From the human T2T-CHM13v2.0 reference genome, Homo sapiens, in NCBI GenBank assembly GCA_009914755.4, contig CP068257.2, positions 42,656,001 to 42,720,000 of the forward strand: DNA of 64,000 nt, given 5' to 3'. A program made the translations under genes and the position numbers. Under the pieces are notes generated by a model. The model was not told the DNA's origin. It was given only the letters and a program-made list of their open reading frames with translations, and made no database searches. The number at the start of each line of letters is the position of its first letter. Position 1 is the stretch's first letter. Below are positions 39,474-44,972 of the stretch, piece by piece.

Positions 39474-40190
39474 AGCCGGGCGCGGTGGCTCACGCCTATA
39501 ATCCCAGTACTTTGGGAGGCTGAGGCAGGTGGATGGCCTGAGGTCAGGAGTTCGAGACCAGCCTGGCCAACATAGTGAAACCCTGTCTCTACTAAAAATA
39601 CAAAAAATTAGCTGGGCGCGGTGGTGGGTTTCACTCGTGTCCATGTGAAGAGACCACCAAACAGGCTTTGTGTGAGCAATCAAGCTGTTTATTTCACCTG
39701 GGTGCAGGTGGGCTGAGTCTGAAAAGAGAGTCAGTGAAGGGAGATAAGGGTGGGGCCGTTTTATAGGATTTGGGTAGATAAAGGAAAATTATAGTCAAAG
39801 GGGGGTTGTTCTCTGGCGGGCAGAGTGGGAGTCACAAGGTGCTCAGTAGGGGAGCTTTTGAGCCAGGATGAGCCAGGAGAAGGAATTTCACAAGACAATG
39901 TTATCAGTTAAGGCAGGAACAGGCCATTTTCACTTCTTTTATGGTGGAATGTCATCAGTTAAGGCGAGAACCAGCCATCTGGATGTGTACGTGCAGGTCA
40001 CAGGGGACATGGTGGCTTAGCTTGGGCTCAGAGGCCTGACAGTGGGCGCCTGTAATCCCAACTACTTTGGAGGCTGAGGCAGGAGAATCGCTTGAACCCG
40101 GGAGGCAGAGGTTGCAGTGAGCCGAGACTGTGCCATTGCACTCCAGTCTGCGCAACAAGAGCGAGACTCCGTCTTAAAAAAAAAAAAAAG
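39474..40190 (+). mobile_element. Alu interrupted by a ~410-bp ERV9/LTR12-like solo-LTR fragment (39631-40041); Alu TSD agatgtacatta
   Basis: Alu left arm ...ttagctgggcgcggtggtggg, then the insert tttcactcgtgtccatgtgaagagaccaccaaacaggc...ggcttagcttgggctcagaggcctgaca, then the Alu resumes gtgggcgcctgtaatccca... poly(A); direct repeats agatgtacatta flank the Alu. Confidence 0.7.
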
Positions 40191-41502
40191 ATGTACATTA
40201 GTTCAGTCTGGAAAGGCAGGACACCTTGAAGGCCGGGTGGGGTTGTGGGGGTGGAGGGAGGCTTCCAGCTTCCAGGTCATCGGTGGATAAGAGACAAAAG
40301 ATTGCATTCTTTTGAGTCCTTTCACTGAATACACAATTTGGTCTAGCTTAGTAAATCTGCATTTTTACATAAACAATAAGGCAGAGAAAGCAAACAGATA
40401 GGCATGTGTCTCCGGTGAGCAGGGGGATGACCTCCTGTCCCACACCTGTGAAGATCAGCTATCAGTTTACATTCCAGGGTGAAATTCAACAGAACTGTTT
40501 GAGGGTAAAGATCTTGAGGCCCACAAGGAATTTCCTTGTGGGCAAATTGTGAGGGAGCTTCATAGCTTTTTATCTTTGTAGCGATCTTATTTAGGAATAA
40601 AATTGGAGGCAGGTTTGCCTGATGCATTTTCCAGCTGACTTTTCCCTTGACTTAGTGATTTTAAGGTCTTGAGCTTTATATTCCTTTCACACAGCTAAGC
40701 CTCAAACCATGTTTTAAAACTTTTTCCCCTTTCCCCTTTCCTCCTCCTCCACCCTAGTCTGAAGATGTAACTGAGACAAGCTGCTTGTGTTACCTTCCAT
40801 CTTGAAATACAGCCTGGGAATGTGAACCTCCACTCCGTTCCCATCCTGTGCTCTCAGGCCTTATGCACATTTAGTTTACCTGGATGCCTGTTAAGCACAC
40901 ACCATGCTCACTTATCTGGTCATCTCTTTGCTTGGAAGCTTCAGGGGTCAGCTCCTGAAAGGGACCGGACACCTCATTCTGTCTCCAACAAGATTACTTC
41001 AAGGCCAGAACTCACTCTCGGCCTTGAAGTAATTGAGGACTAAACTCTGATTTTTCTTTTTTTATCTTGCCCAAATTCCTAAAGGGCATGGACAGTCATG
41101 CCCTACAAACCATAAATTCTCATCAGATGGGTTTTATTTAACCTTCTATATCGTGGTGTTGACAAAAAGAGTCAAACTCTGTAAAATATTTTAAGAGATT
41201 TATTCTGAGCCAGATATGAATGACCATGGCCCGTGACGCAGCCCTCAGGAAATCCTGAGAACATGTGTCCAAGGTGGTCGGGGCACAGCTTGGTTTTTTA
41301 CTTTTTAGGAAGGCATGAGACAGCAATCTAATACATTTAAGAAATACGTTGGTTTGATTCAGAAAGGCGGGACAACTCAAAGTGGGGGCTTCCAGGCTAT
41401 CGGTGAATTTAAACATTTTCTGGTTGACGGTTGAGTTTGTCTAAAGACCTGGGATCCATAGAAAGGAAATGCTCAGGTTCAGATAAAAGACTGTGGAGAC
41501 CG

Positions 41503-41795
41503 CTGGGCACGGGGGCTCACGCCTGTAATCCCAGCACTTTGGGAGGCCGAGGCGGGCGGATCGCGAGGTCAGGAGATCGAGACCATCCTGGCTAACACGG
41601 TGAAACCCTGTCTCTACTAAAAATACAAAAAACAAACAAAAAAATTAGCTGGGCATGGGGGCGGGCGCCTGTAGTCCTAGCTACTCGGGAGGCTGAGGCA
41701 GGAGAATGGTGTGAGCCCGGGAGGCGGAGCTTGCAGTGAGCCGAGATTGCGCCACTGCACAGAAAAAAAGAAAAAAAAAGACTGTGGGGACCAAG
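41503..41795 (+). mobile_element. AluY-like SINE inserted in the foldback element (TSD aaagactgtggrgacc)
   Basis: gctgggcacgggggctcacgcctgtaatcccagcactttgggaggccgaggcgggcggatc...; direct repeats at both flanks. Confidence 0.9.
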
Positions 41796-42195
41796 GTTCT
41801 TTTGAAGTCTTTAATGGCTGCCCTTAGAGACAATCGATGACGAATGTTTCCTGTTCACACCTTTAAAAGGTGCTAGACTCTCAGTTAATCTCGTCAGGAT
41901 TGGGAGGGCCTGGAAGAAAAAGATCAAGCTATGTGAATAGAGATTCCTTCCAGATGCACATTTTCTCCCACAAAGGACGGCTTTGCAGGAGCGTCTCAAA
42001 ATATGGCAGGAAACATGTTTCGGGGTAAAATATTTTGATTTTATTCCTTGTCATGTTATGCCAGAGTCAGATTGGAAAGTAAGTTATGACATATAGGGTT
42101 AAATAAAACCCGTCTGATGAGAATTTATGGTTTGTAGGGCATGACTCTCCATATCCCTTAGATAGGAATAGAGGCAAGAAAAAAAATCAGAGCTG

Positions 42196-42492
42196 GCCAG
42201 GCGTGGTGACTCACACCTGTAATCCCAGCACTTTGGGAGGCCAAGACGGGCAGATCACGAGGTCAGGAGATTGAGACCATCCTGGCTAACATGGTGAAAC
42301 CCCGTCTCTACTAAAAATACAAAAAATTAGCTGGGCGTGGTGGTGGGCACCTGTAGTCCCAGCTACTTGGGAGGCTGAGGCAGGAGAATGGCGTGAACCT
42401 GGAGGGCGGAGCTTGGCAGTGAGCCGAGATCGTGCCACTGCACTCCAGCCTGGGCCACAGAGCGAGAATCCACCTCAAAAAAAAAAAAAATC
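42196..42492 (+). mobile_element. Alu SINE inserted in the right arm of the foldback element (TSD aaaaaatcagagct)
   Basis: ggccaggcgtggtgactcacacctgtaatcccagcactttgggaggccaagacgggcagatcacgaggtcagg...poly(A); aaaatcagag is duplicated on both sides. Confidence 0.9.
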
Positions 42493-44246
42493 AGAGCTTA
42501 GTCCTCAGGTTGGTGTAAGATGTGGGATGACAGAAAAGTCTCAGAGCAGTGCCTTCTGAGCTCTTCTACACCAAGCAGGCAGAATGTTCACTGCTAATGA
42601 GGCTGGAGCTGGTCCCCAGCAGTGGTAGGAAGCTTCCAGCAGGCTCAGGCTGTGGGTGCTTGCAGGGGCACAGTGTGACGGCCACGGGCCTCAGAGCTCT
42701 GGTGGGCTCACGAAGGCTCCACTGGACCTACGTCACAGCCTTGGCCCCCTGCCCAGCCCTGGGCCTCCCTTCTTACAGGGGGTGAGTTAGGCACGCTGCT
42801 CCCCAGTAAATCTCAGGGGGCTACACACAGAGCCTGCTTCCCAGAGACACGCAGAGTGGGGGACACAGGAGCTTCCTGTCGAGTCTTTGAAGCAAGGCCA
42901 CCACCGCCATCACCAGGCACACAGGGCCGACACCCGCTTTGTGGTTTCAGCCAGTGGGTCGGGGTTTCTGGCTTGCAGCTAGGGATACTGCTGAGGACAA
43001 GGTACCATGGATCAACCGCTGCTCCCTCCTGCCCTGACAGCTGGGAGCTCTGCAGGGCTCAGCAGGGCAGGCTCACCCCCAACTCATGCAAACGCTATCC
43101 TGATGACACCTGCTGCTGAGTCCCATGCGCCCCAGGCCCCGTCCTTGTCTCTTCTTTCCTCCACCACCTTCGCCCCATAGGTGACACCCCCAGTCCAGAC
43201 CCCCTCCAGGCCGATACCCTAGTCACCTGCATTGCATAACAAATCACCCCCAGACTTAGCAGCTCACAATAGACATCGCTGTCTCCCGGTTTCTGAGGCT
43301 CAGGCATCTGGAGCAGCTGAGCTGCATGGCTGGGCTCAGCCTCCTGGGAGGGAAAGGGGGGCCGTCTCTGAGGACCTGGCTGAGGTCTCCTAGCTGCCCC
43401 ACAAGCTGTCGGTGGGAGGCTTCGCTCCCTGCAACATGGCCTCTCACAACATGGCCTCCCAAGGAGTGAGGGATGAGGGGGGCAGGGAGAGGGGGAGAGG
43501 AGGAGAGGGAGACAAATGGAGAGTCAGCAAACATGCTCCGGAGCTGAAGTTTTCATGATCTCGGAGTGACCACCTCTCCCCTGCCCATGTTGCTGGCCTC
43601 GCCACCCACCTGGTACGACTCAGGGGCAGAACCTGGTCCACCCTGGAGGCTCTGGGCTCCACACCACATCCCTGAGGCAAACTTTGGAACTCCTCGGGTG
43701 GCAGGTGCAGCACACCCCTCCCAGATGCCCTTGGGAACTCGAATCTTCTCCCTTGGTCTCAGGAGCCAGTGCGGTGGGTAGCCTGCCTGACCCCCTGCTG
43801 ACCGAGGACCTCCCCACCGGCTGGTGCTGCAGATGGTTCAGATTCCTGTGGCAGGTCAGAGCCAGGCCTGGGAGAAGGGACAGGCAGCACGTGTTGATTT
43901 ACATTTTTTCAGTGTCCTGAGAGGTCTTCAGGCCTCGTGGTCATTTCCAGCTCCGTTCTCGTAATTGCCATTCTGGGAGCCATTGGCGCAAGGGCACCTG
44001 GCACAGAGAGTTTACAGTGGCCACGCTGGCTGCAGTCTTTACCCTGGCGTGGCATCCATCGCTGTCCTTTCACATTTTAAGAACAGTTCTGCTGTATATT
44101 TCCAGAATGCAGATGACTCTGTGGACTCCAGAGATGAAAAGAAACATGTCTGTTCCCTCAGCCTGAAGCCCTGCTCTAGACCAGGTGTCGGCAAACTGCA
44201 GCCCACTGGCTAGATTGGGCCCGCCATCTGTTTGCAAATAAAGGTT

Positions 44247-44972
44247 TTTCTTTCTTTCTTTCTTTCTTTTTGAGATGGAGTCTCACTCTGTCACCCAGGC
44301 TGGAGTGCAAGGGCCTGATCTTGGGTCACTGCAACCTCCCCATCCTGGGTTTAAGTGATTCTCCTGCCTCAGGCTCCTGAGTAGGTGGGACTATAGGTGT
44401 CAGGCCTCTGAGCCCAAGCTAAACCATCATATCCCCTGTGACCTGCACGTATACATCCAGATGGTCTGAAGTAACTGAAGAATCACAAAAGAAGTGAAAA
44501 TGGCCTTAACTGATGACATTACCTTGATTCCTGCCTTAACTGATGACATTACCTTGTGAAATTCCTTCTCCTGGCTCAGAAGCTCCCCCACTGAGCATCT
44601 TGTGACCCCCACCCCTGCCCGCAAGAGAACAACCCCCTTTGACTGTAATTTTCCACAACCTACCCAAATCCTATAAAACAGCCCCACCCCTATCTCCCTT
44701 TGCTGACTCTCTTTTCGGACTCAGCCCACCTGCACCCAGGTGAAATAAACAGCCCTGTTGCTCACTCAAAGCCTGTTTGATGGTCTCTTCACACGGACAC
44801 ACGTGACAATAGGCATGCACCACCATGTTCGGCTAATTTTTTGTATTTTATTAGAGACAGGGTTTCACCATTTTGGCCAGGCTGATTTCAAACTCCTGGC
44901 CTCAACTAATCTGCCCGCCTCAGCCTCCCAAAGTGCTGGGATTACAGACGTGAGCCACCGTGCCCAGTCCGC
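44247..44972 (-). mobile_element. Antisense Alu interrupted by the same ERV9/LTR12-like solo-LTR fragment (44398-44810)
   Basis: (tttc)n tail and antisense Alu (44247-44397), then the insert tgtcaggcctctgagcccaagctaaaccatcat...ggtctcttcacacggacacacgtgacaat, then the antisense Alu resumes aggcatgcaccaccatgttcggctaatttttgtat...; the insert is 85-90% identical to 39631-40041 in reverse complement. Confidence 0.7.

What the first reader, a model, noticed from the sequence alone, without database searches (positions are those of the whole stretch)
39474..44972. Two unrelated Alu elements, each split by the same roughly 410-bp ERV9/LTR12-like solo LTR at almost the same Alu position
At 39474-40190 (+ Alu) and 44247-44972 (- Alu) a full Alu is interrupted by a 410-bp element that starts T(G/T)TCAC..GTGTCC.TGTGAAGAGACC and ends ...GCTTAGCTTGGGCTCAGAGGCCTGACA. 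The insert lies between Alu ..GTGGTGG and GCGCCTGTAATCCC, that is, at the start of the right monomer, in both cases. The two Alus have different flanks, different target-site duplications and different subfamily signatures. The pair therefore looks like either two independent integrations into the same Alu motif, which would suggest an integration hot spot or sequence preference, or copies of an uncatalogued Alu-LTR chimeric repeat family.
Basis: partly seen in the sequence, partly recalled or inferred. Interest (0 to 1): 0.5.

Follow-up and report, generated by a model that had tools for sequence, protein, structure and literature searches.

The report
Two HERV-H solo LTRs inside Alus
Two neighbouring Alu repeats were each hit, millions of years apart, by a different HERV-H retrovirus (LTR7, not ERV9/LTR12) that later collapsed to a lone LTR; the similar break position is most likely coincidence, so this is ordinary nested-repeat anatomy.

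Summary
Two AluS elements (39474-40189 on +, 44245-44970 on -) are each interrupted by a complete LTR of about 412 bp.

The LTR was misidentified. It is HERV-H LTR7, not ERV9/LTR12. Copy 1 (39629-40041) is 95.6% identical to the published LTR7d2 consensus. Copy 2 (44398-44808) is 95.6% identical to LTR7bc. According to Carter et al. 2022 these two subfamilies spread in different waves.

Each LTR has its own perfect 5-bp target-site duplication made of Alu sequence: GTGGG for copy 1 and CCTAT for copy 2. These lie 7 bp apart on the Alu consensus (150-154 versus 157-161). Removing the LTR plus one duplicate restores a colinear Alu in both cases.

These are therefore two independent integrase events, each later reduced to a solo LTR. 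This rules out a propagating Alu-LTR chimeric family and a duplication.

A true integration hot spot is not supported:
- The two target 5-mers differ.
- None of 52 other LTR7 genomic flanks, recovered from human contamination in metagenomes, carries this junction.
- The one other Alu-nested copy sits at Alu positions 237-241 in the opposite orientation.
- A target-site matrix built from those flanks does not favour this Alu region.

A weak regional preference cannot be excluded without a genome-wide count. The finding is ordinary and of low interest.

The parts
39461..39473 (+). Upstream copy of the outer target-site duplication of Alu 1 (AAGATGTACATTA)
   Evidence: Read directly from the sequence. 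The same 13-mer follows the poly-A tail at 40188-40200.
39474..39628 (+). Alu 1, 5' part: left monomer, A-rich linker and the first bases of the right monomer. It ends with the 5-bp duplication GTGGG (39624-39628).
   Evidence: BLAST to AluSx positions 2-150 at 92%. Rfam Metazoa_SRP match at 39475-39591, E=2.6e-15. The reconstructed Alu is 91% identical to AluSx and colinear with it.
39629..40041 (-). Solo LTR7 (HERV-H), subfamily 7d2, 413 bp, full length, antisense to Alu 1
   Evidence: 95.3% identity over positions 1-407 of the 411-nt '7down' reporter insert of Carter et al. 2022. Best global match is the LTR7d2 consensus: 95.6%, 18 mismatches.
40042..40189 (+). Alu 1, 3' part. It begins with the second GTGGG (40042-40046) and ends with poly-A (40176-40189).
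   Evidence: BLAST to AluSx positions 154-289 at 90.5%. Rfam SRP match at 40020-40177. Duplication read and mapped to consensus positions 150-154.
40188..40200 (+). Downstream copy of the outer target-site duplication of Alu 1
   Evidence: Read.
44245..44397 (-). Alu 2, 3' part: right monomer and an A-rich (AAAG)n tail. On the minus strand it begins with the second CCTAT (44397-44393).
   Evidence: BLAST to AluSx positions 157-287 at 85.5%. Sequence read. Mapping.
44398..44808 (+). Solo LTR7 (HERV-H), subfamily 7bc, 411 bp, full length (TG...CA ends), antisense to Alu 2. It carries a 22-bp internal tandem duplication.
   Evidence: Best global match is the LTR7bc consensus: 95.6%, 17 mismatches, one 22-column gap. 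It is only 91.7% identical to copy 1, with 13 gap events.
44809..44970 (-). Alu 2, 5' part. On the minus strand it ends with the 5-bp duplication CCTAT (44813-44809).
   Evidence: BLAST to AluSx positions 5-159 at 85.9%. Rfam SRP match at 44852-44968, E=1.4e-9. Duplication mapped to consensus positions 157-161.

Best explanation
These are two separate germline integrations of HERV-H proviruses into two AluS elements that were already present.

The events:
- An LTR7bc-type virus entered Alu 2. This subfamily belongs to the old wave, dated 25-40 million years ago by Carter et al.
- Later, an LTR7d2-type virus entered Alu 1. This subfamily belongs to the hominoid wave, dated 9-20 million years ago.
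- Each integrase event made a staggered 5-bp cut inside the Alu, just after the A-rich linker, and so duplicated 5 bp of Alu sequence (CCTAT and GTGGG).
- Each provirus was later reduced to a solo LTR by recombination between its two LTRs.

Both LTRs are antisense to their host Alu and sit 7 bp apart in Alu coordinates. This is best read as coincidence, at most helped by the weak palindromic target preference that all retroviral integrases show.

What is shown and what is inferred:
- Shown: LTR identity, subfamily assignment, the duplications, colinearity of the restored Alus, and the absence of HERV-H internal sequence.
- Inferred: the order and dates (from published subfamily ages), the proviral intermediate, and the coincidence reading.
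For: LTR identity and subfamily:
- The 22-mer at the insert end occurs in papers only as HERV-H LTR7 sequence.
- Copy 1 is 95.3% identical over the whole published 7down sequence.
- Against all 11 published subfamily consensi, copy 1 is best matched by 7d2 (score 711 versus 555 or less outside 7d). Copy 2 is best matched by 7bc (score 667 versus 610 or less).
- The subfamily ages differ.

Integration signatures:
- Each LTR is bounded by a perfect 5-bp direct repeat of Alu sequence.
- Deleting the LTR plus one repeat restores an Alu colinear with the consensus.
- A 5-bp duplication is the norm for LTR7. Of 16 solo-like LTR7 contigs, 7 show a perfect 5-bp repeat and 2 show a 4/5 match; the chance of a perfect match is 1/1024 each.

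Solo status and independence:
- There is no HERV-H internal sequence and no other LTR7 copy in the window.
- No similarity extends beyond the Alus, and the Alu halves are only 79-83% alike, no closer than to other Alus nearby.

Against a hot spot:
- Of 52 distinct genomic 5' flanks of LTR7 recovered from metagenome contigs, none carries this junction.
- Only one flank (L056, an LTR7b) lies in an Alu. It is in sense orientation at Alu positions 237-241.
- The target-site matrix built from those flanks is weak, about 0.3 bits at the two best positions.
- That matrix places 8.5% and 5.2% of predicted weight within +/-7 nt of the two sites, against 5.4% and 5.2% if uniform.
Against: - Given that both LTRs are in Alus, the coincidence has probability about 0.05, or 0.026 with orientation. 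For a pre-specified pair it is 2e-4 to 1.4e-3. This is not negligible.
- Site 1 ranks 7th of 278 possible sites in its Alu by the crude matrix.
- Position-specific hot spots are documented for nested transposable elements in general (PMC2836564). They are also documented for HIV-1 integrase in Alu (PMC10547254).
- The comparison sample is small. It is also biased against Alu-flanked solo LTRs, because short-read metagenome assemblies break in Alus.
- No orthologous primate loci could be examined.
Confidence: 0.84

Rival explanations
1. There is a real regional integration preference. The HERV-H intasome, through target-DNA sequence or bendability or through nucleosomes phased on Alus, would favour the first 10-15 bp of the Alu right monomer. 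Independent HERV-H copies would then recurrently land there.
For: - Two of the three Alu-nested LTR7 copies seen here fall at positions 150-161, both antisense.
- The conditional chance of that agreement is about 0.03-0.05.
- Site 1 scores in the top 3% of sites in its Alu.
- There is precedent for hot spots in nested transposable elements and for an HIV-1 integrase hot spot in Alu.
Against: - The two target 5-mers are unrelated (GTGGG and CCTAT) and lie 7 bp apart. The HIV-1 Alu hot spot, by contrast, is a single exact position with a palindromic motif.
- Site 2 ranks only 73rd of 289 sites in its Alu.
- The matrix gives no meaningful enrichment for the region.
- Only 1 of 52 LTR7 flanks is in an Alu, and it lies elsewhere and in the other orientation.
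- Levy et al. list HERVH among the transposable elements under-represented in nested insertions.
- The pair was selected after the fact.
Confidence: 0.13
2. The two loci are copies of one Alu-LTR-Alu composite. It would either be a chimeric repeat family mobilised as a unit or an inverted segmental duplication that has since diverged.
For: - The architecture and relative orientation are the same in both composites.
- The two units align end to end at 89% mean column identity.
- Together they form an inverted repeat of about 720 bp.
Against: - The internal junctions differ by 7 bp.
- Each LTR has its own matched 5-bp duplication.
- The LTRs belong to different subfamilies, with several subfamily-specific indels.
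- The Alu parts are only 79-83% alike, no closer than to other Alus.
- The flanks are unrelated.
- None of the 52 other LTR7 flanks has the junction.
Confidence: 0.02
3. The inserts are ERV9/LTR12-type solo LTRs.
For: None from the tools. From memory only, an LTR12-like element with CCAAT-box tandem repeats seems to lie elsewhere in the window, at about 56870-57470.
Against: - The inserts match LTR7 consensi at 95.6% over their full length.
- The inserts have no similarity to anything else in the window, including the 57-kb region.
- No tandem repeats of the 24-bp unit occur in the inserts.
Confidence: 0.01

Closest known systems
HERV-H solo LTRs, subfamilies LTR7d2 and LTR7bc (Carter et al. 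2022, eLife, PMC8912925)
   Same: Both copies show full-length colinear identity of 95.6% to the respective consensus. They have the expected termini (TGTCAGG... and ...GTGACA or GTGAAA), a 5-bp target-site duplication and solo status.
   Different: Nothing essential differs. Copy 2 has a private 22-bp tandem duplication. Both copies happen to lie inside Alus.
Nested transposable-element insertions and their position 'hot spots' (Levy, Schwartz and Ast 2010, NAR, PMC2836564)
   Same: A younger element sits inside an older one, and the target-site duplication preserves the original target sequence. This is the class of event that paper catalogued by the hundred thousand.
   Different: That paper reports a 4-bp duplication and a T-N6-A motif for ERV1 elements as a class. 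The LTR7 copies here and in the metagenome contigs show 5 bp. No LTR7-in-Alu hot spot is reported in the text I could read, and HERVH is listed there as under-represented in nesting.
HIV-1 integrase hot spot in Alu repeats (Miklik et al. 2023, Genome Res, PMC10547254)
   Same: A retroviral integrase that makes 5-bp duplications targets Alu sequence. That work shows that an integrase-intrinsic local hot spot in Alu can exist.
   Different: The HIV-1 hot spot is one exact position (consensus 262, CTGGGCGACAGAG) with a palindromic CT..G...C..AG motif. Here there are two different 5-mers 7 bp apart, at consensus positions 150-161, with no shared palindrome.
Composite retrotransposon families such as SVA and LAVA (from my own knowledge)
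   Same: They are mosaics containing Alu-derived and LTR-derived parts.
   Different: Composite families share identical internal junctions and spread as a unit by L1 machinery. Here the junctions differ, and each LTR carries integrase-type duplications inside its Alu.

Membership tests
LTR7 / HERV-H solo LTR | Full-length colinear sequence similarity to an LTR7 consensus | tested here: met
   Copy 1 versus LTR7d2: 95.6%. Copy 2 versus LTR7bc: 95.6%. Both matches run end to end. BLAST to the published 7down sequence covers positions 1-407 of 411 at 95.3%.
LTR7 / HERV-H solo LTR | Short target-site duplication of the length typical for the family (5 bp) | tested here: met
   GTGGG on both sides of copy 1 and CCTAT on both sides of copy 2. 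The family norm was established from 7 perfect and 2 near-perfect 5-bp repeats among 16 solo-like LTR7 contigs.
LTR7 / HERV-H solo LTR | Solo state: no HERV-H internal region adjoining the LTR | tested here: met
   Both ends of each LTR abut Alu sequence. BLAST of the window against 124 LTR7-bearing contigs, many of which include proviral internal sequence, hits only LTR7, Alus and three short stretches that also match a few of the contigs (39265-39407, 45007-45336, 59643-59793), which were not examined further.
LTR12 / ERV9 LTR | Sequence similarity to LTR12, including its U3 tandem CCAAT-type repeats | tested here: not met
   No LTR12 consensus was available. However, the inserts are fully accounted for by LTR7, contain no tandem array, and share nothing with the LTR12-like region at about 57 kb.
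Alu (host elements) | A dimeric 7SL-derived element of about 300 bp with an A-rich linker, an A-rich tail and flanking duplication | tested here: met
Rfam SRP matches fall on the halves. The outer 13-bp duplication of Alu 1 is visible. The outer duplication of Alu 2 is degenerate.
Propagating Alu-LTR composite repeat family | Identical internal junctions in all copies | tested here: not met
   The junctions lie at Alu positions 150-154 and 157-161, with different internal duplications.
Propagating Alu-LTR composite repeat family | Further copies elsewhere with the same junction | tested here: not met
   None of the 52 distinct LTR7 5' flanks from human contamination in metagenome contigs carries it. 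The sample is limited and biased, and the human genome itself was not searchable.
Integrase-intrinsic hot spot in Alu (HIV-1 type) | One exact position with a shared, usually palindromic, target motif | tested here: not met
   The targets are two different 5-mers 7 bp apart. Compare the HIV-1 case.
Integrase-intrinsic hot spot in Alu (HIV-1 type) | Statistical excess of independent integrations at the site genome-wide | not testable with these tools
   This needs the RepeatMasker table of a human assembly. Only 3 Alu-nested LTR7 copies were seen here.

The most novel reading that the evidence does not exclude
HERV-H integration had a genuine regional preference for the first 10-15 bp of the Alu right monomer, in antisense orientation. 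Nucleosomes phased on Alus could, for example, expose that stretch. LTR7-in-Alu insertions would then cluster there genome-wide, making this an endogenous-retrovirus counterpart of the HIV-1 Alu hot spot.
Probability: 0.12. Interest if true: 0.35.

Novelty: already known. Interest (0 to 1): 0.1.

Why it matters
It matters little. LTR7 solo LTRs nested in Alus are routine content of any RepeatMasker track, and the two events here carry all the standard marks of independent retroviral integration.

The only open point is whether HERV-H had a local preference within Alu. A simple genome-wide tally would settle that. Even if true, it would be a modest addition to known integrase target-site biases.

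One practical consequence is that the two composites form an imperfect inverted repeat of about 720 bp, 4 kb apart. If both arms were transcribed together, they could form long double-stranded RNA.

Tried and rejected
- LTR12/ERV9 identity: rejected.
- Inverted segmental duplication: rejected. Similarity stops at the Alu ends, and the junctions and subfamilies differ.
- Composite repeat family: rejected.
- Scan of viral contigs for the LTR7 end: 0 hits.
- Scan of bacterial and archaeal genome contigs: only 4 short contaminant contigs.
- Scan of metagenome contigs: 124 loci (including the 4 from the genome-contig scan) were analysed together, and they supplied the comparison set.
- Target-site matrix from the 52 flanks: too weak to explain or predict the site.
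- Attempt to find the two copies, and so their hg38 coordinates, in the LTR7 alignments supplied with Carter et al.: only a terminal variant shared by several 7d copies was found, and the files are truncated.
- Supplementary tables of Levy et al.: not held.
- ORF listing of the GC-rich window: gave no recognisable gene, so the locus was not identified.
- Literature searches for a reported HERV-H preference for Alu: found none.

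
Full report
**What is there**

Reading 39300-40400 (+) and 44100-45150 (-) shows two dimeric Alus, each interrupted just after the A-rich linker by an insert of about 410 bp. Aligned as whole units, the two composites have 89% mean column identity, but several indels fall in the insert and at the junctions.

A repeat search over 37.0-47.5 kb finds similarity between the two loci only within the Alu and insert parts. The flanks are unrelated. The Alu halves are 79-83% complementary, which is no closer than each is to other Alus nearby.

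- AluSx positions 2-150 and 154-289 on the two sides of insert 1;
- AluSx positions 5-159 and 157-287 on the two sides of insert 2.

Rfam independently recognises the halves as 7SL/SRP-derived sequence.

**Identity of the insert**

The terminal 22-mer TGTCAGGCCTCTGAGCCCAAGC occurs in the paper library only in HERV-H papers. Carter et al. 2022 (PMC8912925) print LTR7 reporter inserts, and Thomas et al. 2018 print HERV-H solo LTRs.

BLAST of those published sequences against the window hits exactly two places, 39636-40041 (-) and 44398-44806 (+). Copy 1 is 95.3% identical to the '7down' sequence over positions 1-407 of 411.

I aligned both copies against the eleven subfamily consensi in that paper's supplementary file 7. 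The results are:

| Copy | Best consensus | Identity | Differences | Next best outside the subfamily |
|---|---|---|---|---|
| Copy 1 | LTR7d2 | 95.6% | 18 mismatches | score 555 or less, against 711 |
| Copy 2 | LTR7bc | 95.6% | 17 mismatches, one 22-column gap | score 610 or less, against 667 |

The 22-column gap in copy 2 is an internal tandem duplication. The two copies are only 91.7% alike, with 13 gap events between them.

The element is therefore HERV-H LTR7, not ERV9/LTR12. The inserts match nothing else in the window.

**Integration signatures**

Copy 1 reads ...GGTG GTGGG [LTR 39629-40041] GTGGG CGCCTGTAATCCC.... On the minus strand, copy 2 reads ...GCATG CCTAT [LTR 44808-44398] CCTAT AGTCCC....

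Deleting the LTR plus one 5-mer restores Alus that are colinear with the consensus, at 91% and 85% identity. The duplicated 5-mers map to AluSx positions 150-154 and 157-161. In both cases the LTR is antisense to its Alu.

To check that a 5-bp duplication is the LTR7 norm, I used human-contaminant contigs fished out of metagenomes with the LTR7 22-mer (124 loci in all, counting 4 from bacterial and archaeal genome contigs). Of 16 solo-like LTR7 copies with both ends present:
- 7 have a perfect 5-bp direct repeat;
- 2 have a 4/5 match;
- the rest include at least one demonstrably chimeric assembly.

BLAST of the window against all those contigs hits LTR7, Alus and three short unexamined stretches. 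No HERV-H internal sequence is evident, so both copies are solo LTRs.

**Independence and timing**

The two copies differ in junction, in internal duplication and in LTR subfamily. Carter et al. date the subfamilies to different waves: 7bc with 7o and 7c at 25-40 million years ago, and 7d1/7d2 at 9-20 million years ago and largely hominoid-specific.

These are therefore two integrase events separated by millions of years. This excludes a composite Alu-LTR family spreading as a unit, and it excludes an inverted duplication.

**Is it a hot spot?**

The 124 contigs give 52 distinct genomic 5' flanks, after removing flanks that are the polypurine tract of proviral 3' LTRs.
- None carries the Alu junction seen here.
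- Only one, L056, lies in an Alu. It is an LTR7b in sense orientation with its duplication CACAC at Alu positions 237-241.

This sample is biased against Alu-flanked solo LTRs, because assemblies break in Alus. The low Alu fraction (1 of 52; P=0.02 against 10.6%) should therefore not be over-read.

The 52 flanks give a weak, roughly palindromic target profile:
- T is avoided at the first duplicated base (3 of 52);
- C is favoured and A avoided at the last base (24 and 5 of 52);
- T is common at the second base and A at the fourth.

This is typical of retroviral integrases (PMC4422553 abstract).

Scoring every possible site in the two restored Alus with this matrix:
- site 1 ranks 7th of 278 and site 2 ranks 73rd of 289;
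- the +/-7-nt neighbourhoods hold 8.5% and 5.2% of predicted weight, against 5.4% and 5.2% under uniformity.

Sequence preference therefore does not predict a hot spot here.

Simple probabilities:
- Alu fraction is 7.9% of the window and 16% of the local 9.5 kb.
- P(both in Alus, within 7 nt, same orientation) is about 2e-4 to 7e-4 for a pre-specified pair.
- The probability is 0.026-0.05 once both are known to be in Alus.

The coincidence is uncommon. It was noticed after the fact, however, among very many possible coincidences.

Position-specific hot spots for nested elements are published as a general phenomenon (Levy et al. 2010). An integrase-intrinsic Alu hot spot is known for HIV-1. That one is a single exact position with a palindromic motif (Miklik et al. 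2023), which is unlike the two different 5-mers here. I leave about a 0.12-0.13 chance that a weak regional preference exists.

**Verdict**

The anatomy is real, but the LTR was misnamed and the breakpoints are not identical. This is ordinary nested-repeat structure: two independent HERV-H solo LTRs (7d2 and 7bc) inside two AluS elements. Nothing new is needed to explain it.

A genome-wide tally of LTR7-in-Alu breakpoints, and a look at the orthologous primate loci, would close the remaining question. Neither could be run with these tools.

Noticed in passing
window 39474-40190 and 44247-44972: Both LTRs are antisense to their Alus and the Alus are on opposite strands. The two composites are therefore inverted copies of each other as whole units: an imperfect inverted repeat of about 720 bp with a 4,056-bp spacer. 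Folding arm 1, a linker and arm 2 as RNA gives -1102 kcal/mol, with 610 of 717 nt of arm 1 paired to arm 2. Controls with arm 2 shuffled give about -460 kcal/mol. If co-transcribed, this could be a long double-stranded RNA and a substrate for editing.
   Followed up: partly
window about 56870-57470, and 57775-57839: A 24/48-bp tandem array GCTGATTGGTCCATTTTACAGAGC lies at 57118-57401 and is partly repeated at 57775-57839. From memory it resembles the CCAAT-box repeats of an ERV9 LTR12 U3 region in antisense. A real LTR12-like element may thus lie elsewhere in the window. It shares no sequence with the inserts of the finding.
   Followed up: partly
metagenome loci L005-L124 (for example L013, L021, L037, L044, L056, L066, L086): HERV-H LTR7 copies show 5-bp target-site duplications, whereas Levy et al. 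2010 describe ERV1 elements as a class as making 4-bp duplications. The 52 flanks give a weak V-T-N-A-B target profile, reminiscent of the weak palindromes seen for retroviruses that make 5-bp duplications.
   Followed up: partly
window 42328-42379, 41646-41697, 45454-45504: Sub-threshold Rfam matches to mir-1268, an Alu-derived precursor family, fall at the start of the right monomer of the intact Alus. This is the same Alu stretch that LTR7 splits in the two composites.
   Followed up: no
loci L056 and L110: Two metagenome contigs share the same 3' flank of an LTR7 (the Alu-derived CACACGACTGCACTTCAGGCTGGG) but have different 5' flanks. At least one of them is a chimeric assembly through the LTR7 repeat. 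This is a caution for using such contigs as integration-site data.
   Followed up: no
window 1-34000 and 46000-50000; arrays at 34004-34263, 36820-37182, 48533-48823, 63114-63431: The window is very GC-rich (60-70% over most of its length) and holds many GC-rich minisatellites. These include a 52-bp unit repeated 5 times at 97% identity and a 36-bp unit repeated about 9 times at 96%. The Alu/LTR7 cluster sits in a pocket of about 46% GC between CpG-rich blocks. The long ORFs there look like GC-rich artefacts, and the locus was not identified.
   Followed up: no
window 44510-44560 (inside LTR7bc copy): A private tandem duplication of about 22 bp (CCTTAACTGATGACATTACCTTG...) is present relative to the 7bc consensus. 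It is the kind of intra-LTR duplication that Carter et al. describe as a driver of LTR7 diversification.
   Followed up: no
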